DNA of 46,029 nucleotides from Planctomycetota bacterium (GCA_026991575.1 JALXBF010000135.1:1-46029), one strand, 5' to 3'; positions 1-18,716 are shown, numbered from the stretch's first letter. Made by a program: numbers and translations. The notes: generated from the letters alone by a model not told the origin.

Positions 1-549
1 TGCGGCCCAGTGGGCCTCGGGCCGGGGGGTATGGATTCTAGACTGGGGGTCTTGCGCGTTGGGCGATGAGATTCCGATCACGTAATGGGTGGCCGTCCCG
101 AGCAGTCACGTGCGGTCGGCTGTGTGTTTATTCCGAACCTGACGGGATAGCGTGGCACCGTGCCGAAACTGTTTGGGTGAGACCAGACCTGTGTGGCGTG
201 TGTATCAGGTGCGTTGCTCCTGCTCGGAGGGCGGGGCCGAGCGAAGTGATGCTCCTGCAGGAGAACGTTGGTGGGTCCGGGTTCGTCAAGGCCGGGGGAT
301 TTTGACTGGCCGGGTGGTCGCGGGGTGGGCTGGGTGTGGTGAGCTGTTCTGCGGCTTAGCCCATCCGAACGTGTAGACCGGGAGAGAGCCGATGCGTCGA
401 GACGGGCTATGGGGACAACGTGCTGGTGCCAGCAGAGGTGGTCTGTGCGTGCGCAGGTTGCTGCTCTGGTGCTAGTGAGCATCTGCCACGTGGCAGGGGA
501 TCGAGTTGTTTGCGGTTTGTAGGAACGTGGCACTCGGAGGAGATGGCAC

Positions 550-2256
550 ATGGCAACGGGCTCGGGCGCTGCTGATAAACCCATAGGAAATGCAGTGAAG
601 ACACTCGGCGACCCGCGTCTTCGACACTGGGCCGAAGTTAACAGCGTAGCGTTCAGCCCCGACGGGCGTCTGATCGCATCGGGTAGCTGGGACCACACGA
701 TCAGGCTGTGGGACGCAGCCAGCGGTGAGGAGCTACGCACGCTCACTGGGCATGGGTATGGGGTCCATAGCGTCGCGTTCCGTCCCGACGGGCGTCTGAT
801 CGCCTCGGGTGGCGGCGATGGCATGATCAAGCTGTGGGACGCGGCCAGCGGTGAGGAGCGGTGTACGCTCAGGGGGCATGAGGTCGGGGTCAACAGCGTA
901 GCGTTCAGTCCCGACGGGTGTCTGATCGCATCGGGGAGCCTCGATGGCACGATCAAGCTGTGGGACGTGGCGAGCGGTGAGGAGCTGCGCACGCTCAGAG
1001 GACATGAGGCCGTCGTCAAGAGCGTAGCGTTCAGCCCCGACGGGCATGTGATCGCATCGGGTAGCTGGGACCGCACCATCAGGCTGTGGGACGCGGTGAG
1101 CGGTAAAGAGTTGCGCACGCTCACGGGGGACAAGTTGGGTGTCAACAGCGTAGCGTTCCGTCCCGACGGGCATGTGATCGCATCAGGTGGCTGGGACCAC
1201 ACGATCAAGCTGTGGGACGTAGAGAGCGGCAAAGAACTGCGCACGCTCACGGGGCATGAGGACGGGGTCCAGAGCGTAGCGTTCCGTCCCGACGGGCATG
1301 TGATCGCATCGGGTAGCTGGGATGACACGATCAGGCTGTGGGACGTGACGAGCGGTAAAGTGCTGCGTACACTCACGGGGCATGCGTGGAAGATCACCAG
1401 CCTAGCGTTCAGTCCCGACGGGCGCCTGATCGCATCGGGGGCGTGGGACCACACGATCAGGCTCTGGAACGCGGAGAGTGGCGAGGAACTACGCACGGTC
1501 GCGGGGCATGCGAGCATGGTTAAGAGAGTAGCGCTCAGTTCCGACGGGCGTCTGATCGCATCAACGAACCTTGATGGCACGATCAGGCTCTGGGACGCGG
1601 AGAGTGGTGAGGAACTACGCACGCTCACGGGGCATAACACGGGGTATGAGTGGCAGGTCAACAGCACAGCGCGCAGTCCCGACGGGCGTCTGATCGCCTC
1701 GGGGAACGACGATGGCACGATCAAGCTGTGGGACGTAGAGAGCGGCAAAGAGCTGCGCACGCTCACTCGGCATAAGTTCGGGGTCGCCAGCGTAGCGTTC
1801 AGTCCCGACGGGCATCTGATCGCATCAGGTGGCTGGGACCACACGATCAAGCTGTGGGACGTAGAGAGCGGCAAAGAGCTGCGCACGCTCACGGGGCATG
1901 AGGAGGTGATCTGGATCGTAGCATTCCGTCCCGACGGGCGCCTGATCGCATCGGGAAGCTGGGACCACACGATCAAGTTGTGGGACGTAGAGAGCGGTAA
2001 AGAACTGCGTACACTCACGGGGCATGCGTGGAAGGTCACCAGCCTAGCGTTCAGTCCCGACGGGCGCCTGATCGCATCGGGGGGCGGCGATGGCACGGTA
2101 AGGCTCTGGGATGCCGACTCCGGGACGCCTCTGCAGACGTGGGTGCTCGCACCGGGCGGAGGTGTGATTGGAGATGTTTGCTTTTCCGACGACGGTCGCT
2201 ACCTGGCAACGGCCAACGGCAACGGCACCATTTCCATCCTGCGTGTCGAGAGGTAG
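550..2256 (+). CDS. Stand-alone WD40-repeat beta-propeller protein (568 aa; 12 regular 42-aa repeats plus a divergent terminal blade)
   Basis: Repeated GH...V.SVAFSPDGRLIASGS.D.TIKLWD units. GGAGGAG RBS before ATG 550. No signal peptide, kinase or NTPase domain visible. Confidence 0.93.
   Translation: MATGSGAADKPIGNAVKTLGDPRLRHWAEVNSVAFSPDGRLIASGSWDHTIRLWDAASGEELRTLTGHGYGVHSVAFRPDGRLIASGGGDGMIKLWDAASGEERCTLRGHEVGVNSVAFSPDGCLIASGSLDGTIKLWDVASGEELRTLRGHEAVVKSVAFSPDGHVIASGSWDRTIRLWDAVSGKELRTLTGDKLGVNSVAFRPDGHVIASGGWDHTIKLWDVESGKELRTLTGHEDGVQSVAFRPDGHVIASGSWDDTIRLWDVTSGKVLRTLTGHAWKITSLAFSPDGRLIASGAWDHTIRLWNAESGEELRTVAGHASMVKRVALSSDGRLIASTNLDGTIRLWDAESGEELRTLTGHNTGYEWQVNSTARSPDGRLIASGNDDGTIKLWDVESGKELRTLTRHKFGVASVAFSPDGHLIASGGWDHTIKLWDVESGKELRTLTGHEEVIWIVAFRPDGRLIASGSWDHTIKLWDVESGKELRTLTGHAWKVTSLAFSPDGRLIASGGGDGTVRLWDADSGTPLQTWVLAPGGGVIGDVCFSDDGRYLATANGNGTISILRVER
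628..2140 (+). repeat. Tandem 126-bp coding repeat array of WD40 gene 1
   Basis: Near-identical DNA blocks such as agcgtagcgttcagtcccgacgggcg and acgatcaagctgtgggac recur every 126 bp; one unit is 138 bp. Confidence 0.95.
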
Positions 2257-2992
2257 ATGACGGCACGGAGGTCCTCTTGTTGGTGGGGAGCCCCTGCCTG
2301 GGCGAGGAACGCCAGATGAGGCGGCCAAAGCGTCGGGCTGTCGCACGCTAGCTCACACCGCGGAGCGGTCCCGTACGGCGCGCGCTGGCCTCAGCCCGGG
2401 GCATTCCTGCCTACTGAGCTGGTGGCTGCCTGTCCCCGAGCAAGGTAACCTGCACGCCTGCCTCCTGTGCACGCCGCGCGACGCCCCCGCGTGCCGCAGC
2501 AGTCTTGTCTGAGTCGAGGCACGGGGAGCGCAGCTGCGACGGGTCTGGCTCTGCGGTCCGGATGGCTGCCAACCGGACGAACGCATCCTAACCCGGGCGC
2601 TGCTGCGCGTCGCGCCGCCAGGTCCACCAGATCGATGGGCCGCCATCCCGGCCGTGAGTTGTAGGATTCGTTCTGCACGTGCCTTCCGGCAGCGGTCCAG
2701 CGGATGGCAGGTTGTACGGGCTGGCAGGCGGGTACGGAGGTCTGAACTCCGCGATGGTGGGTAGACGGCACGGCTGACGCACTCCAAATCGTGGAAATGG
2801 AGCCCGTGCGGAGCAGTTCTAGCCCATCGTTGGGGTTCGACGGGGGGCTGCACGCGGACCGGCAACTATTCACAGAGTCCTGTCATGCCAGCGCGCAGCG
2901 CCGACACGGCCTCGTGTGGGCGGAGGAGAAGGCCTGTATTGAGTCAGTGGGATCCTGGAAGACAAACCCCGTTGGCCGCCGCAACAGGCTCG

Positions 2993-4280
2993 CTTAAGTG
3001 GACAGCGCCCCTTTGAGAACGGCTTCCACGGTGAGTAAGGGGGAGAGAGGTGACTGTGGGCCCAGGGGACTACTCCTGAGGATACAGGACTTGATCTTGT
3101 CGACACCGATGCCCATCGCCTTCAACTTGGCAATGCCGGTCTTCGTGTGTGATTGTCGTGCCTGCCTGTTGCGACGCTGACAATACTGCTGCTTCTGGAT
3201 TTCGTCCTCACATCGCCCGCGCCGGACCTTTCGTGGCAGGGTGGCAGTGTCAAGCCACACGTTCATCGCGCTTCGGACTTGCCAGACGGTGATCCGATCC
3301 TTGTGTGCACCGTCGGATTCGTCGTACCTCTGCCGAATCCGAGCACAGAACAACCAGCTCAACTGGCTGACGTAGAAGTATCGGTGCAAGCAACGCCATC
3401 TGCAGAATCTTCGGCTTGCGCAGCCATCCGTGGAAGTTCCCCCGGAATCTCCCCGACAAACACCTGCCCACGCTCTTCCAGGCCTGTCAGAAACCCACCG
3501 TCGCGACCGTACAACGCGTCGAACGTCCACGCCGACACACGAATGCCGTTGCCCAAGATGTGGTCAATTTGACCCAACGCAATCTCCGGTTTGGTCCGGA
3601 ACTGGACGTCGTTCAGAATGTACGCCTGTTTTCGGCCACCGGGAGCGCTTGCCCACTCCTTGGGGAGATACACGGTGCTATCGAGGATGACCTGAAACCC
3701 GGGAGTCAAGTAGCCAATGTGCACTGCGACGACGCAGTTGTCCACCTTGCCCAGGTTCTCGTTGTACTGCCGCCCGACACCTGCCGTGTGCCGACCGCTC
3801 TTGGATGTGCCCGATTCGTCCACACACCCAATGGCATCCGAGCGCGCATATTGCGTGGCTACGCTCTCCTGGCATCGGCCGCGCAACTTTGGGCCATCCC
3901 ACTTGATCGACTCGAGGAACCGCTGCTGCGTCCGAGGCTCCTCCCTGAACCTCGTCGCGATCACCTCGGCATTCTTGCGCTCCAGATTCGACAACTGGCC
4001 TCGAACGCACACCCCGCGTAGCCTCCGTCCCTACCATCCTCGGAAACACTCATCGAACCAACTCAGAAATCGCCCCAACTCCCTGCCGAGACCAGCAATC
4101 TGCTTCAAGGTCATTCGTGACGATCCCCCTATTTCCCGGGACTCCTCCCCAGGGAGCGCACACCGAGAGATCGCATTTTTCCCCTCGCTGATCGCACCCA
4201 ACACGCGCCGCTCACGTAACCATCAGCACTAACGCTGGCTGCGCACCGCACGCCGCCAAAACTGGCGCAGCCAAACTAAG
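2993..4280 (-). mobile_element. Decayed IS701-family insertion sequence with putative imperfect terminal inverted repeats
   Basis: Transposase motifs RKNAE, QRFLES.KWD, VDESGTSKSGRHTAGVGRQY..NLGKVDNC and WTFDALYG. Ends cttaagtggacagcgccccttt (2993) and reverse-complement cttagtttggctgcgccagttt (4280) match at 15 of 22 positions. Confidence 0.8.
2994..4114 (-). pseudogene. IS701-family DDE transposase pseudogene
   Basis: ATG at 4114 (MTLKQIAGLGREL), in-frame TAG at 4031-4033, frameshift near 3440, apparent internal deletion near 3400, and C-terminal part (LHRYFY...QRRNRQARQSH) in another frame ending at 2994. Confidence 0.85.
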
Positions 4281-4439
4281 CATCGCCACGTGACGTTCGC
4301 CACCCGCCAGAGTCCAGCTTTTCCTAACGCGACAACTGTCTCCCGCTCTGCTCGCTAACCCCGCAGACCTCGTCCCTCACTCCCACCCAGCCGAACGGAT
4401 AGACTCGTCCCGCTTCGGAAAGAGCCTCCCCTATCTGTC

Positions 4440-5690
4440 TTACCGAATGGACCTCGACTCTATAATCAGCTGCATGCGTGCTACGTCGGGGCTGTCCTCG
4501 TCTGTATTCCAGACTTCCTCCGGCGGCCTCGACACCGTCTTATCAGGCTTCACCGTCACCGAGAAGCTATGGGTCCCATCAAGATCTCGTGTATCCTCTG
4601 ACGTCCCCTCGTAGAGAAGCATATCGAACTGCAGCGTGACCTCCCCGCTCGTTGAGCACTGGCCATAGAAATACACCTCCAACCTGCACTCCCCACCCCA
4701 TGTTACCTTCGCGAACAATGTCTTAGGTATCAACTCGCCTCTTCCAACGCGGAAGCTCTTCGTTACCGAGGTCCGAATCTCCTCGTTCTCCCCGATCCAC
4801 TCGTCGTCGACCCCATGGATGGCCGCCTTGATCTTAACCTGTTGTGCCACAACCGCTGGCTGTGCTGGGCGCGGCACATCGTGCTCAATCGCTACGGAGA
4901 ATTGTTCGCGGCCGTCCGAGATCAGAAGGCGTGACATCGCCCGTGTCATCGACAGCGACCTCAGGTTGATGCGGGCAACATACCGCGAGGGAAACGTTAT
5001 TGCCTCTCGCTCGATGCGCGCAATGCGTTGTCCCTTCCTGTCCAAGACCCACAGCGACAGGGCCGGCTCGGCTCGTGCACTCATTCCCCAACCATGTAAC
5101 TCCAAAGCTGGCGGGTCTAGGGCGTACCCGCCCGCCGGATCGGCGCTGTGCCATCGCACCCGCACGGCGTACGGAAACACTGCGACCACTGTTGGAGGAA
5201 GCGCCGAGCGCAGCTTTCCAAGGTCCTCTAGAACCCGCTCGTAGGTTTCTTGACGAACCTTCCCATAGCGCTCAAGGTCCTCGAGAATCAGCGCCCGGTC
5301 ACGGCGCAGCGTCTCTAGTAGGCTGACAATGTATCCTCGGATCTTTTCCTCTAGGTAGTCTACCATAACTTTGCCTTGATTCCCTGCGTCGAGCACAGCA
5401 AGCCGGACCACCGGCTCGAGAGCACCTCGGAGTGCCATCCGAAACCGGGAGGGCGCGGTAGAGAGGTGCCGATCGAGTGTGTCGTGCAGTCGCGCTACCT
5501 CGTCGCGCCACGCCCTCGACTCCTGCACAAGCTCGGTTCTTACGTTCTCAAGTACCCGGATCGCTGCATCTAAGTGGTCTACGTGCAGCGGTATAGAGGA
5601 CTGACAGCCGCCCACCGCAGTAATGGCTATGACTACCACACATAGGACTTGGATCCCACGTGGACACCTTATTGGTTGCGGCGTCTGCAT
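4440..5690 (-). CDS. Hypothetical protein, probable lipoprotein (416 aa)
   Basis: Long ORF with a hydrophobic N-terminus ending in lipobox-like AVGG-C, a helical region, then beta-rich domains. Visibly more AT at third codon positions than the core genes. Confidence 0.75.
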   Translation of the reverse strand: MQTPQPIRCPRGIQVLCVVVIAITAVGGCQSSIPLHVDHLDAAIRVLENVRTELVQESRAWRDEVARLHDTLDRHLSTAPSRFRMALRGALEPVVRLAVLDAGNQGKVMVDYLEEKIRGYIVSLLETLRRDRALILEDLERYGKVRQETYERVLEDLGKLRSALPPTVVAVFPYAVRVRWHSADPAGGYALDPPALELHGWGMSARAEPALSLWVLDRKGQRIARIEREAITFPSRYVARINLRSLSMTRAMSRLLISDGREQFSVAIEHDVPRPAQPAVVAQQVKIKAAIHGVDDEWIGENEEIRTSVTKSFRVGRGELIPKTLFAKVTWGGECRLEVYFYGQCSTSGEVTLQFDMLLYEGTSEDTRDLDGTHSFSVTVKPDKTVSRPPEEVWNTDEDSPDVARMQLIIESRSIR

Positions 5691-6958
5691 TTCGATTTCC
5701 TCACAATTGCCGGTTATACACTGCGCTTTGGTGCAGGATGCGATACACCCGCGCCGCCAAGACCGGACCGGCGCGCCGCGAGACCCGAGATAGCAGCATA
5801 GTCAACGACAAAGGGGCGGCCGGGGCATTTCTGAGTGCCGTACTGTCGCGGCACATGCACGATCTGAACCCAAGTATGGTTGAGCGCAGTGCTCAGCCCG
5901 CGCGCCGCTCCATACAGGGGCAGACCGCTTGACGAGCGCACAGACACCTCGTTCTATCCACGGGATCCCGGTGTGCCGGTCGCTCGCCAACATGGACGCA
6001 CGGGAGCTCAGAAGCCGTGCACACTCGGCTGTCCACAGGGATCGTTGCCGACAGCGTGCCCCACGTTGGCAGCGGCCAGACCACCTCTTCAGCGGGGGGT
6101 ACGCCGCCCTGTCGTCAACTGGCACCATGTCATCCCGCCCTAGCCATTTTTCGCGCCCTGGAATGGACCGTATCCGCGTCGGCGTCCTTTTGTCGGGCCG
6201 CGGGCTCCGAGTACGATGCGGGGGAGCCGCAGCCGAACCACTGGACCACCGCAGGCAGCTGCGAAGCGTCGTCACCGCCGAGTGAAACTCCGAGCAATTG
6301 TCCGCATGTCTGATAGGGTGCACGAACGTCCAACCGCTGCAATGGGTGTCGCGAATCCACCGGCCCAACGACGCGGTTCGCTTTACCAGAGCAGCCAGCT
6401 GTGCCGCCAACCGCTCCGACCATTCGGTCCCATGCGAACTATCCGACGACGCTGCCACATTTCTCCCGAGGAGCCAAGTCGTGCCCAAACCAGCAACTTT
6501 GTAGAAGGCTAGGCCATAAAGCTGTCAGCAACCTGCAGCTGTCAGCGCTTTCCCCTGGGGTGTACCCACGAAGACGGGTAGACGTGCCAAGGGGCTTCAG
6601 CGCACGCCGTGGCAGGCTCCCGATAACAACTCGTACGGGGACGCTTCGTGCATTCATCTCAACTCGAACGATGTCGTCCCAACTCGACGAAACTGGTCTC
6701 CCTTCATGCTAATCGCGAACGTCGCGCCAGCCGCGCAACCACCGTGGGGAATTGCTCAGACGGTCCGGTTCGAAGCTCCGTTGTCCTGTCCCAAGCGGCC
6801 TCATCAGGTCGCGGAGCTACGGTGGGCGAAGCTGCTTTACGTGACGAACTGGTCGGTTCGCCGGCTATTTTGCCCGGCAGCCAAACGGAATGGGGTGCAG
6901 CCGAGACGATCGTACGTGCTGCAGCCGCGCAATCGCTGAGCATCCCCCCTGCGAGCAG

Positions 6959-7717
6959 CTAGGTACGCTCATCCTCGAGTTCCCGCAATGCCCTGCGCGC
7001 GGCCTCGCGAACCCACTCGTCCTCATCCTCCAGCCTTGCCATCAACGGCTCAACCGCCCGCCTGTCACCTATCTTCCCCAACGCCTGGCAAGCGGCTTCG
7101 CGAACCCACTTCTGCCCGTCTTCCAGCCGCGCAATCAACGGCTCCACCGCACGCTTATCCCCCAACTCCCCTAACGCCTTGCACGCCGCCTCACGAACCC
7201 ACCGCTGTTCGTCTTCCAATCGCGCAATCAACGGCTCGACCGCGCGCTTGTCGCCCAACTCCCCTAACGCCTTGCACGCAGCTTCACGCACACTCCTCTG
7301 CCCGTCCTCCAATCGCGCCATCAACGGCTCCACCGCACGCTCGTCCCCCAGTTCGCGCAACGCGTTACAGGCGGCCCCACGAACCCACTCATCCTCATCC
7401 TGCAGCCGCGCAATCAACGGCTCGACCGCACGTTTGTCGCCCAACTTCCCTAACGCCTCACACGCAGCTTCGCGAACCCACTCGTCCTCATCCTTCAGCC
7501 TTGCCATCAACGGCTCAACCGCCCGCCTGTCACCTATCTTCCCCAACGCCTTGCAGGCGGCCTCGCGAACCCACTCGTCCTCATCCTCCAGCCGCGCAAT
7601 CAGCGGTTCGACCGCACGCCTATCGCCCACCGCTCCCAGTGCCTCGCAGGCCTCAACGCGCGCCATCGATCTGGGGTCTTCGAGTTGCCGAAGTACCGCG
7701 TCGAGATTCCGGGCCAT
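6959..7717 (-). CDS. HEAT/PBS-lyase (alphaRep-like) repeat protein, 252 aa, about eight 31-aa repeats
   Basis: Repeats of D...WVREAAC.ALG.LGD.RAVEPL.ARLE. Likely start ATG 7717 (MARNLDAV) with GGGAG RBS; the ORF-track extension to 8122 is not protein-like. Confidence 0.9.
   Translation of the reverse strand: MARNLDAVLRQLEDPRSMARVEACEALGAVGDRRAVEPLIARLEDEDEWVREAACKALGKIGDRRAVEPLMARLKDEDEWVREAACEALGKLGDKRAVEPLIARLQDEDEWVRGAACNALRELGDERAVEPLMARLEDGQRSVREAACKALGELGDKRAVEPLIARLEDEQRWVREAACKALGELGDKRAVEPLIARLEDGQKWVREAACQALGKIGDRRAVEPLMARLEDEDEWVREAARRALRELEDERT
6965..7650 (-). repeat. Tandem 93-bp coding repeat array in the HEAT gene
   Basis: Blocks atcaacggctc.accgc and cgaacccactcgtcctcatcc recur at 93-bp period. 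Confidence 0.9.
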
Positions 7718-8178
7718 TGCTGGCTCCCGCGTTCCCCCCGCGCACACCACTCGCCGCGTCGCCGGCCGAAGCAACCGCAGACACAAGTCCCCATCAATCC
7801 ACCCTGCGGAAACGCCCGAACCATCCGGCGAGTCCACTTCCACCGGTTCGGCCTCGCGCCGTTGTCGTAGTCGGCCAAGAGCCGAACGGCGGCACAAGCC
7901 CAGTATACCCAAGTACGGACGTATTCGGTGGCGCCGTAGCGATAGGAGGAAGCGGTTAGGGAGTCCGCAAGCTGTTGACTGACCGGGTTTGTGCGTCGGT
8001 GCCGAGGAGACTTTCCGCGCAGAAGGGCTGTCCCAGTGGCGTCCTGAGCCGTGTTCGCGGATCCGGAACGAAAAGCACGAATTTTCGACCAAGGATGGCC
8101 TGGCGCGGGGACATGTTGGCATGCAGGCTGCCTCAGAGGCGCCCCCTTCAGAAAGCCACTCACATCAGGAGAAGCACG

Positions 8179-8345
8179 ATGGCCCGAAACACGACGCGTC
8201 GGCTGGTTGCCTGGGAGACGCTGGAGGAGGGTCCCACACCATCCGAACGATCCGCAATCTTCTGGAAGTCATCCCCGACGAGCGGTTGCTCGCATCGTTG
8301 ACAAGAGCTCGTGGTCGTGGCCGAAATGATGTGCCCGTACGGTTG
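8179..8345 (+). pseudogene. 5' remnant of a transposase (IS5/IS1182-like, DUF772-type N-terminus)
   Basis: AGGAG RBS plus ATG 8179 MARNTTRRLVAWETLEEGP, frameshifting into TIRNLLEVIPDERLLASLTRARGRGRNDVPV. Resembles the LFAW..LEDSP...IPD.KLL..L...RGRGRDDYPV start of planctomycete transposases as I recall it; truncated afterwards. Confidence 0.6.
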
Positions 8346-8498
8346 AGCCCCACCTGGCAGCCAACCAGCCTGGCGTTCCGCGCAGGTCCCATCCGGCTGT
8401 TGCGCGCGCTGGGCAGCGGGACTGGCCGCGGGCAGACGGCCGGCAGGTCCCGGGCCGCTAGCAAGCCACCAGTGCCACCTGCAACATCGCCCCGAAGC

Positions 8499-10517
8499 TC
8501 AGTACTCGTGTCGGGCCTTCGTCTCGTCCAGGCCAGCATGCAGCAGCTTCACCGGCGGTAGCTTCCTCTCTGCCACCTCGCGCTTAAGCCGCTCGATGAG
8601 CGCGTCGAGTGTGACGGGACCTAGGTCTCCTTCCGTGCGCTCGCGAAGCGACACCGTGCCCTGCTCCGCCTCCCGCTTGCCGACGATCGCCATGTAGGGA
8701 ATCTTCTCCAGCTGCGCGTCGCGGATCTTGTGGCCAATCTTTTCGGCACCAAGATCGATCTCGGCCCGGAAACCAGCCGCCAGTAGTTTGGCGTGGACCT
8801 CGCGCGCATAGTGAGCCACCTTCTCGCTGATCGGTAGCACGCGGATCTGCACCGGGGCCAACCACAGCGGGAAGGCACCGCCGTAGTGTTCGATCAGAAT
8901 GCCCATCAACCGTTCCATCGATCCGAACGGAGCCCGGTGAATCATCACGGGACGGTGGGGGCGGTTGTCCGGCCCGATGTATTCCAGGTCGAATCGCTCC
9001 GGCAAGTTGTAATCCAGCTGGACCGTTCCCAACTGCCACTCGCGGCCCAGGCAGTCCTTGACGAGGAAGTCAACCTTGGGACCGTAGAATGCAGCCTCCC
9101 CCTCGGCACACGTGTAGTCCAGCCCCATCTCGGAGACGACGCGCTGAATGGCCTGCTCTGCTTCGTGCCAGCGCTGTGGATCGCCCACGTACTTGGCACT
9201 GGCTGGATCACGCAAGCCAACACGCACGCGGTAGTCGTGCAGACCCAGTGCGCGGCAGACCAGCAGCACCAACTCGATCGTAGAGCGGAATTCCTCTTCA
9301 ACTTGCTCCGGCGTGCAGAACAGATGGGCGTCGTCCTGGGTGAAACCGCGCACACGCAGCAGCCCGCTCAGCTCACCCGACTGCTCATAGCGATAAACCG
9401 TACCAAACTCTGCCAGTCGCACGGGCAGATCGCGATAGCTGTGCTGCTCGGCCTTGTAAATGTGGATGTGATGCGGGCAGTTCATGGGTTTCAAGTAGTA
9501 GATCTCTTCGTCGATCTGGATTGGCGCGTACATCTTGTCGGCGTAGGTTGCCAGATGGCCGCTTCGTTCGTACAGTTCCCGCTTTCCGATGTGCGGCGTG
9601 TAGACCGGCTGGTAGCCGCGTTTGACCAGTTCCTCCCTGATGAAGCTCTCCAGGATGCCGCGTACGGTTGCCCCCTTGGGCATCCAGAGCACCAGCCCAC
9701 TGCCTACCTCGGCACTGATCGTGAACAGCTTCAGCTGGCGTCCGAGCACGCGGTGATCCCGCTTGCGTGCTTCTTCCAGTCGCTGCAAGTACTGTTCGAG
9801 CTGTTCTCTGGTAAACCAGGCGGTGCCGTAGATCCGCTGGAGCATCTTCCGAGTGGCGTCGCCCTTCCAGTACGCCCCCGCGATGCTAAGCAGCTTGAAC
9901 GGCCCGATCTTCGTTGCGTCCGGCACGTGTGGTCCGCGGCACAGGTCGACGAACTCACCGTAGCGGTAGAAGCTCAGGGTCGGGTACTTGGACAGCTCCT
10001 CGTCGATGTGCTCCACCTTGTAGGGCTGATCCAGTTCGCTGCAGAGCTTGCGTGCCTCGGCCACGGACGTCTCGAACCGCTCGAACCGCTCGCCGGCAGC
10101 TGCCAGCCGGGCCATTTCTTCTTCGATCCGCGCCAGATCTTCCTGCTTCAGCGGCTGGGGGAGGTCAAAGTCGTAGTAGAAGCCGTTCTCGATGGTCGGG
10201 CCAAAGGCGAGCTTAGCGCCGGGAAACAGCCGCATGACCGCACGGGCCATCAGGTGGGCCGCCGAGTGCCGCATGACGTCCAAAGCCTCGACACTGTCGG
10301 GTCCGAGCAGCTCGATCTCAATGGTCTCGGCCGTCTCGGGCAGCCGGTACTCGACGTCGGTCACCTGCCCGTTAACCCTCACCGCGATCACGCGGTCCAT
10401 CTGCTCAGGCGCTAGCCGCTCGACGACTTCGCGCACGGTTGTGCCAACCGGGAACTCTCCTTCACCCCCGCCTGCTATCCTGCACCGGACCGTGTGCACA
10501 ACAGACGCTTCGCCCAC
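8499..10517 (-). CDS. thrS: Threonine--tRNA ligase
   Basis: TGS domain, RHSAAHL, DLCRGPH editing motif, KPMNCP, RVRGFTQDDAH, GEAAFYGPK, HRAPFGSMER and anticodon-binding domain. Start is GTG 10517 (GGAGG RBS) or TTG 10532. Confidence 0.98.
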   Translation of the reverse strand: MGEASVVHTVRCRIAGGGEGEFPVGTTVREVVERLAPEQMDRVIAVRVNGQVTDVEYRLPETAETIEIELLGPDSVEALDVMRHSAAHLMARAVMRLFPGAKLAFGPTIENGFYYDFDLPQPLKQEDLARIEEEMARLAAAGERFERFETSVAEARKLCSELDQPYKVEHIDEELSKYPTLSFYRYGEFVDLCRGPHVPDATKIGPFKLLSIAGAYWKGDATRKMLQRIYGTAWFTREQLEQYLQRLEEARKRDHRVLGRQLKLFTISAEVGSGLVLWMPKGATVRGILESFIREELVKRGYQPVYTPHIGKRELYERSGHLATYADKMYAPIQIDEEIYYLKPMNCPHHIHIYKAEQHSYRDLPVRLAEFGTVYRYEQSGELSGLLRVRGFTQDDAHLFCTPEQVEEEFRSTIELVLLVCRALGLHDYRVRVGLRDPASAKYVGDPQRWHEAEQAIQRVVSEMGLDYTCAEGEAAFYGPKVDFLVKDCLGREWQLGTVQLDYNLPERFDLEYIGPDNRPHRPVMIHRAPFGSMERLMGILIEHYGGAFPLWLAPVQIRVLPISEKVAHYAREVHAKLLAAGFRAEIDLGAEKIGHKIRDAQLEKIPYMAIVGKREAEQGTVSLRERTEGDLGPVTLDALIERLKREVAERKLPPVKLLHAGLDETKARHEY

Positions 10518-10735
10518 GGGTTCCGCCTCCAAGTCTCAATGACCTACCTGCCGGCCTCCGGTCGCTTGCGCACGCCCAATTGTACTGCCACAATGCCTGT
10601 ACACTGGTGACACTCCGCAACGCCCCCCGGGCCGGCAACGGGGTTCGGCACCCCGGCCGCTACATGAGCCCGCCCACGGGATCGACGAAGGTTGCTACCC
10701 GGTTAACCGCCTGGCTGGATCGCTGCCAGGATCGG

Positions 10736-10764
10736 TTGCCAGCGACGTGGGCGGCCGGTAGACT
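10736..10764 (+). promoter_or_regulatory. Sigma70-type promoter of tRNA-Val
   Basis: TTGCCA-N17-TAGACT, 15 nt upstream of the tRNA. Confidence 0.65.
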
Positions 10765-10779
10765 TGTAGTGGGTTGGAA

Positions 10780-10853
10780 GGGCGGTTAGCTCAGTTGGCT
10801 AGAGCGCGTGCCCGACACGCACGAGGTCGCAGGTTCAAGTCCTGCACCGCCCA
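10780..10853 (+). tRNA. tRNA-Val(GAC); CCA not encoded
   Basis: Acceptor stem GGGCGGT/ACCGCCC plus A discriminator, D arm GCTC/GAGC, anticodon stem CGTGC/GCACG with loop CC-GAC-AC, T arm GCAGG-TTCAAGT-CCTGC. Confidence 0.96.
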
Positions 10854-10864
10854 CTGGCGCCTGG

Positions 10865-10895
10865 AGCCCGCCGGTTGACTTGCCGGCGGGTTTCT
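10865..10895 (+). terminator. Probable intrinsic terminator after tRNA-Val
   Basis: CCCGCCGG-loop-CCGGCGGG followed by TTTCT. Confidence 0.6.
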
Positions 10896-10899
10896 GCTG

Positions 10900-12000
10900 C
10901 GCGCCCGCCGCCTCGACGTAACCACAACACGCACCGGATCAGATCCCACGCCTCGTCGTCCGACGTGTTCTCCAGGAGTCCCGCGGGCATGACCGAGGAC
11001 TGCGGGTATGCGGTGCGCACGAGGTCCTTCTCCAGGATCCGCTGGTCTGACCGTCCGGGCTGGCGAATCACCGCCGCATCATCCGTTTCCGACACGAGCA
11101 GCTCTAGAATCAAGCGACCGTCCGCCGTCAGCACACGACAGTTGCGGCACCTTGCTTCCACCGAAGCACTGGGCGTGAGCACGCCGCCCAACAATGAGTC
11201 GATGCCCTTCAGCCCGACACCGCTGAGCGGCGGCCCGATCTGTCCCCCCTTGCCTCCCACGGTGTGACACACCCGATAGTGCCGCTCGAACGGCTTCCGC
11301 CCGCGGGCAACGTCACCAGGCTGTGAGCCAGGCCGGCGGTGCGGGCGAACGACTCCGCCTGCGCCCGCGCCTCAGCCGGCGTTCTCAGCCCCGGGCCATC
11401 CAAGCGTCGGCACCACGGAAGCCTTGCCGCTGAGCTTCCCCCGGTCGTGGCCGGCTCGGCACAGCACTAAGCCCGCGGGATACGGTCCCGCGTCGAACGT
11501 CCAGTCGAATCGTTCTCGAATCTCCGCTGGGGACAGGGCCCGGTCCCAGATGCGGAACTCAGCAGTCTCACGCCGCGAGCCCACGCGTGGCGGGATCGCC
11601 CGGCCGATCCGCAGCCCCCGAAACGGTCTGCGTTCGGTCTTTGCGCTGACCGCGTCCAGCTCACCGTTCAGGTGGATCCTGAACCGGCCCAGTTTGTCCC
11701 CGGGTCATCGCGTCGTGCGTCCACAAATGCGGCGACACCTCTCGGGAGGCAACCATGGTGTCGTGGTGCCCTGCGCCCCAAACGCGGAACCTTCTAGGGC
11801 AGAAGTTCATGTCCAACTGACCCGATGTCCGCAAGATGTCGTCCGTGTTGCTGATCCTGTTGTGAAGTCGCACCCATGCTGCCGCCGCGAAGGGACCGTC
11901 CAGGTCGATCAGGTCACGCACATAGTCATCCGGCCCGCGTTCCAACCGGGGCACGCATTGCAGTCGATGGCCAATCGCCCGCCATAGTTCGCGCACAGTG
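10900..12000 (-). pseudogene. Decayed C-terminal part of a PVC-type heme-binding protein (LamG-like domain plus cytochrome c)
   Basis: Fragments in different frames: GPFAAAAWVRL...WTH, RFRIHLNGELDA, EFRIWDRALSPAEI and CHTVGGKGGQIGPPLSG...SVMPAGLL. The heme motif reads YRVCH (first Cys lost). Confidence 0.7.
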
Positions 12001-12299
12001 GCACTAGCGGCGGGTACGGTTTGAGCCGGTCCGGATACGGCCTCGGACGGCGTCCCCCGCCTCGATCAGGAATACTCGGAGAATCCGGTCGTTCGCCTCC
12101 TGAATCCAGATCTCCCTCGTCGTGCGCGATGTTCAGGCCCAGAGATGCTGCTCGGCCCGGCTGTGTGCAGCTCGGAATCGGAGTCGTCCGTGCGAAGGCC
12201 AGCCAGCCTGCAGTGGCGGAAGACGATCTCCGTGGGACCGCTGGCAAACGGCTTGCCATCAGAACGCCGTACAGCGGGACCCTGAACAGGCCCTGCTCC

Positions 12300-12490
12300 A
12301 TTCGGACCCAGCGGCCAGGCACGCGAGTGAATTGGTGAGGAAACAGGGTCGAGGAACTGGTCCAGATCCAGCTTCAGCAAGTAGTTGTCGATCGTTACGT
12401 CGCTGCGGCGACGGAGCTCGCCGCCAAGCCGGACCTGCCCGTAAGGTGCAGGTTCAAGCAGATAGCGGCGGACTTTGTCGCCTGTCGCGG
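12300..12490 (-). pseudogene. Short coding remnant, possibly the N-terminus of a GH127-like glycoside hydrolase
   Basis: DKVRRYLLEPAPYGQVRLGGELRRRSDVTIDNYLLKLDLDQFLDP is protein-like within otherwise non-coding sequence; the family assignment is a weak resemblance. Confidence 0.3.
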
Positions 12491-13853
12491 TAGCGGCCGG
12501 GAGGCTGACAATCAGGCAAGCAGGCAGGCGGCAGGTGGAGACGGGCCATGGCGGCAACCCTCCACCATTTCGCGCAGGACCTTCCGGCGGGCATCGCACG
12601 CTACCCCATCGTAGACCGTCGCCGACGGAACGGGTACGAGACGGAGAGGGTGCCTTTCAGGTTTTGCGTCGGGTACGTCCGCACACTGGGGCTTAGACCG
12701 TCCCCGGTGGAGCTCCCCACGCAGCGAGCGGATAGACCGGCCGAGACGACCGGCCAGATGGGATTGGGTGCGACAGGGACGATCGGACGTCGTGCCGCGC
12801 GGCAGGGGCGGAACCGGACATGGGTTAGCTCCCGTTCGGCGGGGTCACACGAGTGGGACGGGGTGCAAATCAGCATTCCTAGCACACAGGGTTAGCCGAG
12901 GCGGTGCCTAGCCGGCCCCGGAGACAGGCGAACCGGGAGGCGGGCTTGGTGTGCGGCGGGAGAAGTGTCGGGTGGTTACAACGCCTGGAGCAGCGAGGCT
13001 TCACGTTGGAGCCCGGTTCGGGGAAGTAGCCCGGGAGCTTGCGCCGTAGCCCGGAGGTTTGACTGAATGGGGGCGTGGTGCGGTGAGAAGTTTTCCTCGA
13101 CCTGCGGGCAGCTCGTGGTGCAGTCGTCACGGCAGGGAGAATCCGGAATGCGGCGCGGCCGCTCAGTCAACCGTTTGGTGTGGTGGGTGCTATCGCGTCA
13201 GCATGCGGCGGTCGCAAGCTTTCGGGAACAATCGGTTCCGCCACTGCAACCGCTCTATCTGAGCTGACGGACGGGGACGCTCCGCTGTGGACCGGTGCGC
13301 GGGTGCGGTCCAGGGGGGGCTGTGGGCCGGACGCACGGATTGTATCGTGGATGCTGTTGCGCGTCGGGCCACGAAAACTTAGTATCATTGGCCAGCGATT
13401 GCCAGCGGTTGTTTGTGTCGTTGACTCCGAGACCTGACGGGGCAGCGTGGCATCATGCCGTAACCAAGGAATTGGAGTGGGTGGAACGAGAACGGCGTAG
13501 CGTGTGTAGTTCGGGTGCGCTAGTCCTACTTGGGGGGCGGGGTCGTGCAAAGCGATGGCCCGGCATGAGAACGTGGGGACTCCGCTTCCCTCAGGGCCTG
13601 TAGATTCTGACAGGCCGGGTTGGCGCGGGATGGGCCGGGTGTCGTGACCTGTTCTGCGGCCCGAGCCGTCGAAACTTGTAGGTAGAACAGGGGAGAGCCG
13701 ATGCGCGCAGAGTGGCCATCCGGACCACGTGCTCGCGAAGGTAAGAGATCGTTTGTCAATGCACCGCTTGCTGTTTTCCGGCTCTTGAGCGGATGGTACG
13801 TGGCAGTGCGGCAGAGTTGTTTGCGGTTTGTCCGGAAGCTGCGTGCGGGGGGC

Positions 13854-15677
13854 ATGGCAACGGGCTCGGGCACTGCTGATCAACCCTCCGGGGACGTCGT
13901 GAAGACACTTGGCGCGCCGCGTCTGCGACACTGGGCCGGGGTCAACAGCGTAGCGTTCAGCCCCGACGGGCGTCTGATCGCGTCGGGGAGTGGGGACCAC
14001 ACGATCAAGCTGTGGGATGCGGCGAGTGGTAAAGAGCTACGCACGCTCACGGGGCACGAGAGCGGGGTTAACGCCGTAGCGTTCAACCCCGACGGGCGGC
14101 TGATCGTCTCGAGTAGCTGGGACGGCACGATCAAGCTGTGGGACACGGCGAGCGGTGAGGAGCTGCGCACCCTCACGGGCCATGAAGGGGAAGTCTACAG
14201 CGTAGCGTTCAGCCCCGACGGGCGTCTGATCGCGTCGGGGAGTGGGGACCACACGATCAAGCTGTGGGATGCGGCGAGCGGTAAAGAGCTACGGACGCTC
14301 ACGGGGCACGAGGACGTGGTCCGGAGTGTAGCGTTCAGTCCCGACGGGCGGCTGATCGCATCGGGGAGCTCCGACGAAACGATCAAGCTATGGGACGCGG
14401 CGAGCGGTAAAGAGCTGCGCACGCTCACGGGGCACGAGTTCGGGGTCAACAGCGTAGTGTTTAGTCCCGACGGACGGCTGATCGCATCCGGGAGCCTCGA
14501 CTACACGATCAGGCTGTGGGACGCGGCGAGCGGTGAGGAGCTGCGCACGCTCACGGGACATGAGGACTGGGTCCTGAGCGTCGCGTTCAGTCCCGACGGG
14601 CGGCTGATCGCAGCGGGGGACGAGGATGGCACGATCAAGCTATGGGACGCGGCAAGCGGCAAAGAGCTGCGCACGCTCACGGGACATGGGGGGAGAGTCT
14701 GGAGCGTCGCGTTCAGTCCCGACGGGCGTGTGATCGCATCGGGAAGCTCCGACGAAACGATCAAGCTGTGGGACGCGGCGAGCGGTGAGGAGCTGCCCAC
14801 CCCCACGCTCACGGGGCATGAGGACTGGGTCCAGAGCGTCGCGTTCAGTCCAGACGGGCGGCTGATCGCGTCGGGGAGCTCCGACGACACGATCAAGCTG
14901 TGGGACGTGGCGAGCGGTAAAGAGCTGCGCACGCTCAGGGGGCATGAGTTCGGGGTCACCAGCGTCGCGTTCAGTCCGGACGGGCGGCTGATCGCATCGG
15001 GGAGTCACGACCGGACGATCAAGCTGTGGGACGCGGCGAGCGGTGAGGAGCTACGCACGCTGACGGGACATGAGGATGGGGTGCTGAGCGTCGTGTTCAA
15101 TCCCGACGCGCGCCTGCTCGCATCGAGTAGCTGGGACCGCACGATCAAGCTGTGGGACCCGGCGAGCGGTGAGGAGTTGCGCACGCTCACGGGGCATGAG
15201 GACGGAGTCCATGCGGTAGCGTTCAGTCCCGACGGGCGGCTGATCGCGTCGGGGAGCAAGGATAGCACGATCAAGCTGTGGGACGCGACGAGCGGTAAAG
15301 AGCTACGCACGCTCGCGGGGCATAAGGACTTGGTCTGGAGCGTCGCGTTCAGTTCCGACGGGCGTTTGATCTGCTCGGGGAGCAAGGATGGCACGATCAA
15401 GCTCTGGCACGCGGCGAGTGGTAAAGAGCTGCGCACGCTCACGGAGCATGTCTGGGTCAACAGCGTAGCGTTCAGCCCGCACGGGCGGTTGATCGCATCG
15501 GGGGGCGGCCATGGCGCGGTGAGGCTCTGGGATGCCGATTCGGGGGCGCTGCTGCAGACGTGGATCATTGCTCCGGGCCCAGGCCAGATTCGGGAGGTTT
15601 GCTTTTCTCGCGACGGTCACTACCTGGCAACAGCCAACGGCAACGGCACGATCTCGATCCTGCGTCTCGCGAGCTAG
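13854..15677 (+). CDS. Stand-alone WD40-repeat protein (607 aa; 13 regular repeats plus terminal blade = 14 blades)
   Basis: Same N-cap (MATGSG.AD.P.G..VKTLG.PRLRHWA) and C-cap (YLATANGNGTISILR) as gene 1. Start set at ATG 13854 by homology rather than 13701. Confidence 0.93.
   Translation: MATGSGTADQPSGDVVKTLGAPRLRHWAGVNSVAFSPDGRLIASGSGDHTIKLWDAASGKELRTLTGHESGVNAVAFNPDGRLIVSSSWDGTIKLWDTASGEELRTLTGHEGEVYSVAFSPDGRLIASGSGDHTIKLWDAASGKELRTLTGHEDVVRSVAFSPDGRLIASGSSDETIKLWDAASGKELRTLTGHEFGVNSVVFSPDGRLIASGSLDYTIRLWDAASGEELRTLTGHEDWVLSVAFSPDGRLIAAGDEDGTIKLWDAASGKELRTLTGHGGRVWSVAFSPDGRVIASGSSDETIKLWDAASGEELPTPTLTGHEDWVQSVAFSPDGRLIASGSSDDTIKLWDVASGKELRTLRGHEFGVTSVAFSPDGRLIASGSHDRTIKLWDAASGEELRTLTGHEDGVLSVVFNPDARLLASSSWDRTIKLWDPASGEELRTLTGHEDGVHAVAFSPDGRLIASGSKDSTIKLWDATSGKELRTLAGHKDLVWSVAFSSDGRLICSGSKDGTIKLWHAASGKELRTLTEHVWVNSVAFSPHGRLIASGGGHGAVRLWDADSGALLQTWIIAPGPGQIREVCFSRDGHYLATANGNGTISILRLAS
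13932..15560 (+). repeat. Tandem 126-bp coding repeat array of WD40 gene 2
   Basis: acgatcaagctgtgggacgcggcgagcggt.a.gagct.cgcacgctcacggggca recurs at 126-bp period. Confidence 0.95.
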
Positions 15678-18293: not shown

Positions 18294-18716
18294 GTGAGCG
18301 ATCCAGAACGAAAGCAACTACAGCGATCCGCTTCGGATTTGCCCCCGCTGGGGCGGCGTGAGCTGTCGATCATGAACGTCGTCTGGGAGCTAGGGCAGGC
18401 GACGGTTCGCGACGTCGTGGAACGGCTCCCCGCCGACCTTGCCTACACGACCGTGCTCACCATGATGCGGCACCTCGAGAAGAAGGGCTACCTAACGCAC
18501 GAAGCCGTCGGTAAGCAGTACGTCTATCGTCCGACGGTAGCCCGAGAGGACGTGCAGCGGACGACGGTGGCGCAGTTGACCGAGCGGCTTTTCGGGGGGG
18601 CGGCCACGGAGTTGATCAGCACGGTGCTCCAGACCCAGGAGCTCACCGACGAAGAGGTCCGTGAGCTGAGGGCGGTATTGGATCGGCTTGCCAAGGGGTC
18701 GCCAAAACGGGAATGA
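18294..18716 (+). CDS. BlaI/MecI/CopY family transcriptional repressor
   Basis: RELSIMNVVWELGQATVRDV...LAYTTVLTMMRHLEKKGYL...YVYRP...LFGG. Confidence 0.95.
   Translation: MSDPERKQLQRSASDLPPLGRRELSIMNVVWELGQATVRDVVERLPADLAYTTVLTMMRHLEKKGYLTHEAVGKQYVYRPTVAREDVQRTTVAQLTERLFGGAATELISTVLQTQELTDEEVRELRAVLDRLAKGSPKRE

What the first reader, a model, noticed from the sequence alone, without database searches (positions are those of the whole stretch)
550..15677. Pair of stand-alone WD40 genes with homogenised 126-bp repeats but hypervariable binding-face codons: candidate diversifying binder system
Seen: synonymous sites of the framework are almost invariant within and between the two genes (e.g. 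acgatcaagctgtgggac). About six codons per repeat change by multiple bases: the residues after GH, the residue after V, and those flanking the Asp of SG-x-x-D-x. In gene 2 the V+1 position reads N,N,Y,R,N,L,W,Q,T,L,H,W,N and the D-1 position reads G,W,G,S,L,E,S,S,H,W,K,K. Known: these positions form the top-face binding surface of WD40 propellers, and the same pattern of concerted evolution plus diversification is described for fungal HET-D/HET-E/HET-R allorecognition WD40 domains. Inference: with no NTPase, kinase or export signal, these may be free cytoplasmic variable binders, decoys, or repeat donors for sensors elsewhere in the genome.
Basis: partly seen in the sequence, partly recalled or inferred. 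Interest (0 to 1): 0.78.

Follow-up and report, generated by a model that had tools for sequence, protein, structure and literature searches.

The report
Two repetitive WD40 propeller paralogues
Two duplicated genes of an uncultured planctomycete each encode a double beta-propeller made of 13 or 14 recently amplified WD40 blades whose scaffold is conserved while the ligand-facing residues differ from blade to blade, a pattern already described for 'highly repetitive' WD40 proteins.

Summary
Gene 1 (550-2256) and gene 2 (probable start 13854, end 15677) are WD40-only paralogues with 13 and 14 units of 126 bp. The four codons flanking the conserved Val and Asp are the variable ones. They are the same four found under positive selection in fungal HET-D/E, and they lie in the d-a and b-c loops, which share one face.

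The wording "synonymous sites almost invariant / homogenised" is overstated. Units are 79% identical in DNA on average, and framework dS is 0.41-0.48. That matches dS of the paralogues' unique ends (0.37) and the distance of their duplicated non-coding flanks (0.38-0.42). Amplification at about the time of a segmental duplication of at least 2.8 kb explains the similarity without concerted evolution, and a recombination test outside the variable codons was negative.

At the four a-priori codons dN is about twice the neutral rate (p=0.008 in 10 independent unit pairs). This fits diversification of the binding face.

No other locus in the genome shares the unit. No kinase, NTPase or reverse transcriptase lies in the window, and I found no orthologue and no population or RNA data.

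Verdict: a new member of the known highly repetitive WD40 class, with partner unknown. This scan has seen the same pattern on other DNA.

The parts
1..549 (+). Duplicated non-coding 5' flank of gene 1. It is homologous to about 13306-13853 and the homology runs to the contig end. It contains an 18-nt block (503-520) identical in both copies and a GGAGGAG Shine-Dalgarno-like run 8 nt before the ATG.
   Evidence: Alignments: 68-70% identity, JC distance 0.38-0.42, indels of 1, 12, 2, 9, 2, 1, 4, 1, 1 and 7 nt. No reading frame is preferentially conserved. The 18-mer occurs only at these two places in the genome. The Shine-Dalgarno-like run was read.
550..2256 (+). WD40 gene 1, 568 aa: a 28-residue leader, 13 units (634-2253), then the stop. 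The last two units are a distinct 'cap'. It is the more degenerate copy (internal protein identity 0.70; [ST]-x-D turn motif intact in 5 units).
2257..2770 (+). Duplicated non-coding 3' flank of gene 1, homologous to 15678 to about 16185.
   Evidence: alignment: 70% identity over 498 aligned bases, JC distance 0.38, with indels of 1, 1, 17, 1, 1, 1, 1 and 1 nt. Homology is lost beyond that point (44% identity). blastn block 637-2762 against 14067-16171.
13306..13853 (+). Duplicated non-coding 5' flank of gene 2. It includes the 18-nt block at 13814-13831. The longest ORF (from 13701) runs through it, but that extension is not conserved in gene 1.
13854..15677 (+). WD40 gene 2, 607 aa from the probable start: a 28-residue leader, 14 units (13938-15674), then the stop. 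Internal protein identity 0.79; [ST]-x-D turn motif intact in 11 units.
   Evidence: AlphaFold2 single-sequence model: pLDDT 73.2, four strands per unit. Best solved relative 2ymu_A: E 2.1e-167; Foldseek E 4e-49 at 50% identity.
15678..16185 (+). Duplicated non-coding 3' flank of gene 2.

Best explanation
SHOWN. These are two paralogous, stand-alone members of the 'highly repetitive WD40' class in a planctomycete genome. A segment of at least 2.8 kb (5' flank, gene, 3' flank) was duplicated. At roughly the same time a 42-codon blade unit was amplified to 13-14 copies in each gene, between a non-repetitive leader and a two-unit C-terminal cap that are orthologous between the copies. Later block duplications added units: gene 1 r5-r6 resemble r10-r11; gene 2 r1 resembles r3 and r4 resembles r8. 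The framework has since been under purifying selection (omega 0.15-0.26). The four codons flanking the conserved Val (d-a loop and start of strand a) and the conserved Asp (b-c turn) have accumulated replacements about twice as fast as synonymous or flanking non-coding sites, and all 20 regular units carry a different four-residue combination.

INFERRED. Each protein folds into two propellers like the 14-blade protein 2YMU. It has no export signal, so I take it to stay in the cytoplasm. It binds one or more partner proteins or peptides through an asymmetric top face built from the diversified residues. The two paralogues have diverged in specificity. The nearest WD40 arrays in related genomes are fused to Hanks-type Ser/Thr kinases or a SpoIIE phosphatase, and this genome has about 29 kinase frames. 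The likeliest role is therefore a scaffold or adaptor in Ser/Thr phospho-signalling, with the partner unknown.
For: - Architecture and class: only WD40 families match. Internal protein identity is 0.70 and 0.79, against the threshold of at least 0.7 in Hu 2017 (paper passages). The best solved relative is 2ymu_A, 'highly repetitive propeller'.
- Duplication: blastn blocks and alignments; the flanks are non-coding.
- Timing: flank distance 0.38-0.42; dS of unique ends 0.37; unit dS 0.42 and 0.41 within genes and 0.48 between them. The caps are 82-83% identical between genes, while internal units show no clear collinearity.
- Purifying selection on the framework: dN/dS 0.21 overall, 0.26 in gene 1 and 0.15 in gene 2.
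- Fast top-face codons, using the a-priori set from Paoletti 2007: dN 0.95 against dS 0.46 over all 190 pairs. In 10 disjoint nearest pairs, 36.9 of 96.3 non-synonymous sites changed against 70.2 of 282.5 synonymous sites (one-sided Fisher p=0.008). In the 4 youngest pairs, 10 of 38 against 14.5 of 112 (p=0.046).
- Residue-different cells: 25 of 40 at these codons against 61 of 380 elsewhere (p=9e-10).
- One face: model strands fall at columns 2-7, 13-18, 22-27 and 33-38. The variable columns therefore lie in the d-a and b-c connections, which are on the same side of an antiparallel meander. In the bottom loops 17 of 100 cells differ, against 38 of 90 in the top loops.
- Signalling context: Pkinase is fused in 3 of the 5 relatives' loci examined and SpoIIE in 1. 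The own genome gives 35 Pkinase matches, including a kinase-WD40 frame on contig C105.
Against: - No partner, expression or population data exist, so the function is inference from fold and relatives.
- The dN excess is modest (ratio 1.8-2.1). It rests on 20 short units related by an unknown history, and I ran no tree-based site test.
- The order and number of units are not independently verified.
- Gene 1 has 13 blades, several broken motifs (GD for GH; TAR for VAF) and higher framework dN/dS. It may be decaying rather than specialising.
- Neither gene has a kinase or phosphatase neighbour.
- The AlphaFold2 model is of moderate confidence, its termini are unmodelled, and I could not inspect coordinates.
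Confidence: 0.72

Rival explanations
1. Immune-like or conflict sensors or decoys. The two proteins would be trans-acting, continually diversifying recognition modules, like the WD40 ends of HET-D/E or of bacterial STAND/NLR-like ATPases. They would be kept variable by ongoing diversifying selection and repeat shuffling in the population.
For: - The same four codons as in HET-D/E are the fast ones, and all 20 of 20 units carry distinct combinations.
- The youngest unit pairs already differ mostly at these codons: for g2 r1/r3, 4 non-synonymous changes in the five variable codons against 0 in the 35 framework codons.
- The closest solved relative, 2YMU, is the C-terminus of a STAND ATPase implicated in bacterial innate immunity (passages of Pereira and Lupas 2022).
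- A highly repetitive HEAT-like gene and an IS701 fragment lie between the copies.
Against: - No NTPase, effector or defence gene lies in the duplicated segment or beside it. PADLOC gives only a repeat-level hit to one long repeat-protein profile.
- In the genome NB-ARC gives 0 matches, NACHT gives one 31-bit match on another contig, and AAA_16 gives only weak generic hits.
- There is no evidence of unit exchange (PHI p 0.44-0.88 outside the variable codons) or of homogenisation.
- No allelic or strain variants could be found.
- Differences between blades within one protein are what any asymmetric binding face needs. They are not the same thing as polymorphism.
Confidence: 0.12
2. No positive selection. 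The variable codons would simply be unconstrained surface positions drifting at the neutral rate. The apparent excess over dS would come from constrained synonymous sites in a GC-rich genome and from small-sample noise.
For: - The ratio is only 1.8-2.1 and p=0.008 to 0.046.
- GC3 is 0.75-0.80, so synonymous sites may be under codon-usage constraint.
- A default state (G, N, W, H) is still the commonest residue at each of the four columns: 9, 7, 9 and 7 of 20 units.
Against: - Synonymous divergence (0.37-0.48) equals the divergence of the duplicated non-coding flanks (0.38-0.42), so synonymous sites are not visibly slowed.
- The codon set was taken a priori from the literature, not from these data.
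- Saturation at the variable codons (pN 0.54) and the Nei-Gojobori treatment of transitions bias the ratio downward. That statement is from established method knowledge, not tested here.
Confidence: 0.13
3. Assembly artefact. The internal arrays, or the second copy, would be chimeras produced by short-read assembly of a repeat, so unit order, unit number and some 'paralogue' differences would not be real.
For: - No listed Logan contig piece of the one DNA run holding the locus spans either array (16 pieces listed, 263 not shown).
- One contig joins 1698 to 14208, but with only 21 letters on its shorter side.
- Gene 1 has an odd 13 blades.
Against: - Independent contigs anchor the ends of both genes in different unique flanks: 2054-3167, 10780-13973, and from 15219 onward.
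- The two copies differ throughout, flanks included, by about 30%.
- Units differ by about 20% from each other, which short reads can resolve.
- Both frames are open over 568 and 607 codons.
Confidence: 0.05

Closest known systems
Highly-Repetitive (HR) WD40 proteins of prokaryotes (Hu et al. 2017, Sci Rep, PMC5587647; sections and passages read)
   Same: Internal repeat identity is at least 0.7. Most sites are conserved but the predicted interaction hotspot sites are highly diverse. Many repeats form more than one propeller. dS between repeats is mostly below 0.4-0.5. The class is enriched in Planctomycetes and Cyanobacteria.
   Different: There is nothing essential. Gene 1 sits at the lower edge of the class (0.70). 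Here a duplicated pair with non-coding flanks gives an internal neutral yardstick, which that survey did not use.
WRAP propeller of Nostoc punctiforme Npun_R6612 (PDB 2YMU) and recently amplified propellers (Pereira and Lupas 2022, PMC9218822; passages read)
   Same: It is the best sequence and fold match, with 14 blades folding as two 7-bladed propellers. A non-repetitive first strand and an amplified core are described there and are seen here as the leader plus units. That paper reports blade-number peaks at 7 and 14 with intermediates.
   Different: WRAP is the C-terminus of a STAND ATPase in an operon with a TIR-STAND protein, and its blades are nearly identical with no synonymous changes. 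Here there is no NTPase, the units are 79% identical in DNA, and the genes stand alone.
HNWD family, HET-D/HET-E/HET-R of Podospora anserina (Paoletti et al. 2007, PMC1805685, passages read; Chevanne et al. 2010, PMC2873952, search listing only)
   Same: The same four codon positions, two pairs each flanking a conserved residue in the d-a loop and the b-c turn, evolve fastest and lie on the interaction face. Nearly every unit has its own combination.
   Different: The fungal proteins carry HET and NACHT domains. Their units are exchanged within and between loci (concerted evolution) and repeat number is polymorphic among isolates. None of these could be shown here, and the NACHT domain is absent.
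PkwA-type Ser/Thr kinase-WD40 proteins (Thermomonospora curvata PkwA, PDB 5YZV; PMC6113231, passages read)
   Same: A bacterial WD40 propeller of the same sequence family (5yzv_A E 2.8e-85). The nearest homologues in related planctomycete genomes have this kinase-WD40 architecture.
   Different: No kinase domain lies in or next to either gene.

Membership tests
Highly-Repetitive WD40 (Hu 2017) | WD40 repeats forming beta-propeller(s) | tested here: met
   PF00400 at 542.6 and 638.9 bits with 12 and 13 matched stretches. 2ymu_A E 2.1e-167. Four strands per unit in the model.
Highly-Repetitive WD40 (Hu 2017) | Internal sequence identity between repeats of at least 0.7 | tested here: met
   Mean protein identity among the 10 regular units of each gene is 0.70 (gene 1, borderline) and 0.79 (gene 2). 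The threshold was read. The 7 irregular and terminal units were left out of this mean.
Highly-Repetitive WD40 (Hu 2017) | Conserved framework with diverse hotspot sites | tested here: met
WRAP / STAND-linked recently amplified propellers | Propeller is the C-terminal sensor of a STAND ATPase | tested here: not met
   Pfam finds only WD40 families. The upstream flanks are non-coding. No NB-ARC and no NACHT of note in the genome, and none in the window.
WRAP / STAND-linked recently amplified propellers | Near-identical blades with few or no synonymous differences | tested here: not met
   Framework pS 0.34; mean unit identity 79.5%.
HNWD (HET-D/E-like) allorecognition NLRs | NACHT NTPase (and HET) domain N-terminal to the WD repeats | tested here: not met
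HNWD (HET-D/E-like) allorecognition NLRs | Four top-face codons under positive diversifying selection | tested here: met
   dN/dS about 1.8-2.1 at the homologous codons, p=0.008 in 10 disjoint pairs. 25 of 40 against 61 of 380 differing cells. Counting methods only; no FEL or SLAC test was run.
HNWD (HET-D/E-like) allorecognition NLRs | Concerted evolution: unit exchange within and between loci | tested here: inconclusive
   PHI p 0.44-0.88 outside the variable codons. Unit dS equals flank divergence. Within-gene and between-gene identity are about equal. Exchange of whole units cannot be excluded with 126-bp units.
HNWD (HET-D/E-like) allorecognition NLRs | Allelic polymorphism in repeat number and sequence | not testable with these tools
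   Only one DNA run holds the locus, and only as short contigs. No close relatives in 300 class genomes, in the metagenome scan or in the 5.8-billion protein set.
PkwA-type kinase-WD40 | Hanks-type kinase domain in the same polypeptide | tested here: not met
   None of the 35 Pkinase matches in the genome is on this contig.
Diversity-generating retroelement target | Nearby reverse transcriptase and template repeat | tested here: not met
   The only two RVT_1 matches lie on contigs C19 and C96. No extra copy of the unit exists in the genome.

The most novel reading that the evidence does not exclude
The pair would be a split form of an NLR- or kinase-type sensor. Free, duplicated, fast-diversifying WD40 double propellers would act in trans as interchangeable recognition modules or decoys. 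They would deliver ligands to one of the genome's many Ser/Thr kinases or to a P-loop NTPase that lacks its own sensor. The neighbouring highly repetitive HEAT-like protein would be a second such module.
Probability: 0.07. Interest if true: 0.6.

Novelty: new member of a known kind. Interest (0 to 1): 0.24.

Why it matters
The finding adds little that is new in kind. Highly repetitive WD40 proteins with variable hotspot residues are catalogued in bacteria, and Planctomycetes are named as enriched in them. The four fast codons are the textbook HET-D/E ones.

Its modest value is as a clean natural example of 'amplify, then differentiate'. The whole gene was duplicated together with about 0.5 kb of non-coding DNA on each side, so the locus carries its own neutral clock. 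Against that clock the framework is constrained (omega about 0.2) and the binding face is accelerated (about 2-fold).

If long reads or sister strains became available, the pair could show whether blade diversification in a stand-alone bacterial propeller is a one-off specialisation or an ongoing arms-race process.

Tried and rejected
- Expression: no RNA holder is listed for 12500-17000.
- Population and array check: laying contigs of runs X1 and X3 gave no listed piece spanning either array. X3 matched only the conserved ThrRS/tRNA stretch. One joint, 1698 to 14208, has a 21-letter side and I set it aside as a shared-word link.
- Tree-based site-wise dN/dS: the step needing ancestral states was not available. 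I used pairwise and disjoint-pair counts instead.
- Recombination: the PHI signal over all informative sites (p 0.006-0.03) disappears once the variable codons are removed (p 0.44-0.88). I read it as within-codon linkage, not exchange.
- Orthologue searches found nothing above 62% identity (59% in the first of them) in four places:
  - 30 relatives' genomes;
  - 300 genomes of the class, searched with the unique 74-aa cap: 214 of 301 match at E<=1e-8, but the best outside the own genome are 49-62% identical;
  - the metagenome contigs: 68 loci, best full-length match 53%;
  - the 5.8-billion protein set: the 120 listed hits are 32-62% identical.
- Regulatory elements: no sigma-70-like promoter or intrinsic terminator around either gene. 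No Rfam match in 1-16500 except tRNA-Val.
- Defence context: PADLOC gives only a repeat-level hit to PDLC02919. NCBIfam gives nothing above its cut-offs for gene 1.
- Coding potential of the duplicated flanks: all frames are equally poorly conserved.
- Structure: coordinates of the model were not available to scripts, so I argued the face assignment from strand topology rather than measuring it.
- Not used: the second structure job, the complex prediction, the protein atlas and the representative-protein search. The family was already clear.
- Supplements of Hu 2017, which hold the list of HR proteins, were not opened. They might show whether stand-alone planctomycete HR proteins were already listed.

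Full report
WHAT IS THERE

The window is one whole contig (C135) of a 4.96-Mb, 191-contig genome that is 97.8% complete. Hallmark families place it among the planctomycetes. A DUF1559/prepilin-type gene lies at 17226-18221, and PSCyt1 domains sit on the genome's other WD40 proteins. An earlier scan note on another piece of the genome says the same. The single public DNA run that holds the locus is labelled a hydrothermal vent metagenome.

Two + strand ORFs, 550-2256 and 13701-15677, translate to proteins that match only WD40/beta-propeller families. Tandem Repeats Finder reports 126-bp periodicity in both, with 78% and 80% matches.

Phasing on the SPDG motif gives 13 units in gene 1 and 14 in gene 2. 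In both genes a 28-residue leader comes first. The last two units form a distinct cap: a 44-codon unit followed by a 30-codon unit that lacks the fourth strand.

Gene 2's real start is almost certainly the ATG at 13854. From there the two N-termini align residue for residue, whereas the upstream DNA aligns only with indels of 4, 1, 1 and 7 nt.

THE DUPLICATION IS LARGER THAN THE GENES

Homology runs from the contig's first bases to about 2770 on one side, and from about 13306 to about 16185 on the other. The flanks are non-coding. Their indels are mostly not multiples of three, and no reading frame is conserved better than the others.

These flanks give a neutral yardstick:
- JC distance of 0.42 and 0.38 upstream, and 0.38 downstream.
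- Synonymous divergence of the paralogues' unique coding ends (102 codons) is 0.37, with dN 0.15.

CHECKING THE OBSERVATION

The unit similarity is far beyond what protein constraint explains. Where two units share a framework residue they share the codon in 75% of 5314 cases, against 41% expected from the genome's codon usage.

The framework is not 'almost invariant' at synonymous sites, however:
- pS is 0.34 and dS 0.45.
- Mean unit identity is 79.5%, and the closest pairs reach 94.4%.
- The quoted 18-mer is exact in only 10 units.

HOMOGENISED OR SIMPLY YOUNG?

Framework dS among units is 0.42 within gene 1, 0.41 within gene 2 and 0.48 between the genes. That is the same as the neutral divergence of the duplicated flanks. 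The two caps are 82-83% identical between the genes. Internal units show no clear positional orthology.

A few multi-unit block duplications are visible:
- gene 1 r5-r6 against r10-r11: 95% and 83% identity;
- gene 2 r1 against r3: 96%;
- gene 2 r4 against r8: 90%.

A PHI test for recombination is significant only when the variable codons are included (p 0.006-0.03). It is null on the 39 informative sites outside them (p 0.44-0.88).

The simplest history is therefore amplification of one blade at about the time of the segmental duplication, followed by ordinary divergence and occasional unit duplication. This is the 'young repeat duplication' reading of Hu et al. 2017 and the 'amplify and differentiate' reading of Pereira and Lupas 2022. 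Concerted evolution is not needed. Exchange of whole units cannot be excluded, though.

SELECTION

The framework is constrained: dN/dS is 0.21 overall, 0.26 in gene 1 and 0.15 in gene 2.

For the variable sites I avoided choosing them from my own data. I took the four codons that Paoletti et al. 2007 found under positive selection in the Podospora NWD family. These are codons 7 and 9 around a conserved position in the d-a loop, and 25 and 27 around a conserved position in the b-c turn. They map onto columns 1 and 3 (around Val) and 19 and 21 (around Asp) here.

Results at these four codons:
- Over all 190 unit pairs, dN is 0.95 against dS 0.46 for the other 38 codons.
- In ten disjoint nearest-neighbour pairs, 36.9 of 96.3 non-synonymous sites changed against 70.2 of 282.5 synonymous sites (ratio 1.8 after correction, one-sided Fisher p=0.008).
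- In the four youngest pairs, 10 of 38 changed against 14.5 of 112 (p=0.046).
- Counting cells, 25 of 40 differ in residue at the four codons against 61 of 380 elsewhere (p=9e-10).
- All 20 regular units carry a different four-residue combination.

Synonymous and non-coding divergence agree, so codon bias is unlikely to have created the excess.

A tree-based site-wise test was not possible, because the ancestral-state step was unavailable. The case for omega above 1 is therefore moderate, not strong.

ONE FACE

A single-sequence AlphaFold2 model of gene 2 has pLDDT 73.2 and poorly modelled termini. It places four strands per unit at columns 2-7, 13-18, 22-27 and 33-38.

The fast columns (42, 1, 3 and 19, 21) lie in the d-a connection, at the start of strand a, and in the b-c turn. 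In an antiparallel meander those two connections are on the same side. The a-b and c-d loops on the other side are only mildly variable: 17 of 100 differing cells against 38 of 90. Paoletti et al. place the homologous residues on the top interaction platform. I could not measure this on coordinates.

CONTEXT AND RELATIVES

Nothing in the duplicated segment except the WD40 gene is coding. The DNA between the copies holds:
- an IS701-family transposase fragment;
- a lipoprotein-like ORF;
- a highly repetitive HEAT-like gene;
- threonyl-tRNA synthetase;
- tRNA-Val.

None of the Pkinase, RVT_1, NACHT, AAA_16 or NB-ARC matches in the genome lies on this contig. PADLOC gives only a repeat-level match.

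No other locus of the genome shares the unit in DNA. The other WD40 genes are at most 55% identical in protein. They are PSCyt1-WD40 proteins, one long WD40 protein with an unassigned N-terminus, and a kinase-WD40 frame.

WD40 matches occur in 31 of 31 genomes of the first search. The best outside the own genome are 43-59% identical and usually lie in longer frames. Of the five such loci I examined, three carry a protein kinase and one a SpoIIE phosphatase.

No orthologue of the unique C-terminal cap turned up in 300 genomes of the class, in the metagenome contigs, or in the 5.8-billion protein set. The pair is therefore lineage-specific.

The best solved relative is 2YMU, the 14-blade 'highly repetitive propeller' of Nostoc. 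In its native protein 2YMU is the sensor end of a STAND ATPase.

WHAT IT MOST LIKELY IS AND DOES

These are two stand-alone, cytoplasmic double-propeller proteins of the known highly repetitive WD40 class. Their scaffold is held by purifying selection, and their top-face residues have diversified quickly since the blades were amplified. I infer that they bind partner proteins or peptides through those faces, and that the paralogues differ in specificity. Given the architecture of their nearest relatives, they probably serve as adaptors in Ser/Thr phospho-signalling. The fold, the duplication history and the rate contrast are shown. The binding role and the signalling link are inferred.

The rivals are:
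- an immune-like, continually diversifying sensor or decoy;
- neutral drift at unconstrained surface sites;
- an assembly artefact.

The first cannot be excluded without population data. It lacks every contextual hallmark.

NOVELTY

The pattern is in print for bacterial HR WD40 proteins: 'most sites conserved, hotspot sites of high diversity', with Planctomycetes named as enriched. It is also in print for fungal NWD genes. This scan has met it before, in a cyanobacterial STAND protein and in a giant-virus fibre gene.

The stand-alone duplicated form with its built-in neutral flanks is a tidy example rather than a new kind of system.

Noticed in passing
window 6959-8122 (-), repeats 6981-7629: A second highly repetitive repeat protein lies between the two WD40 genes. 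It has HEAT/PBS-lyase-like 31-residue units (93-bp period, 7 copies, 76% matches) that are nearly identical in protein except at a few positions. The real start is probably the internal Met about 137 codons into the longest ORF.
   Followed up: partly
window 3359-4012 (-); low-GC stretch about 3000-6000: A truncated IS701-family / DDE_5 transposase (profile positions 25-220 of 363) lies about 600 nt beyond the end of the first duplicated segment, in a stretch of lower G+C (0.59-0.60 against 0.63-0.66). It may be linked to the segmental duplication.
   Followed up: no
window 503-520 and 13814-13831 (+): An 18-nt block is perfectly conserved in both duplicated 5' flanks, 30 and 22 nt before the two start codons. 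It is found nowhere else in the genome at up to 2 mismatches, whereas the surrounding flank is only about 70% identical. It could be a shared regulatory site.
   Followed up: partly
window 4440-5690 (-): A 416-aa ORF with a lipoprotein-like N-terminus (a hydrophobic stretch followed by Gly-Gly-Cys). It has no hit in Pfam, NCBIfam or PADLOC.
   Followed up: no
window 78-2096 (-): A 672-aa open frame runs antisense to WD40 gene 1. It is most likely a by-product of the stop-free repeat, not a gene.
   Followed up: no
window 8499-10532 (-) and 10780-10854 (+): Threonyl-tRNA synthetase and tRNA-Val(GAC). This is the only stretch of 1-16500 that a second sample's run (X3) also covers more than marginally, at 90-95% likeness, so a relative is present there.
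   Followed up: no
window 18294-19900 (+): A BlaI-type repressor followed by a BlaR1/M56 peptidase-like gene, then a tyrosine-phosphatase-like gene at 19897-20583. All lie downstream of a DUF1559 prepilin-type gene.
   Followed up: no
window 550-2256 (+), units r4, r8, r9: Gene 1 has 13 rather than 14 blades and several broken consensus motifs (GD for GH, TAR for VAF, a 4-codon insertion). The [ST]-x-D turn motif is intact in only 5 units, against 11 in gene 2. It may be under relaxed constraint.
   Followed up: partly
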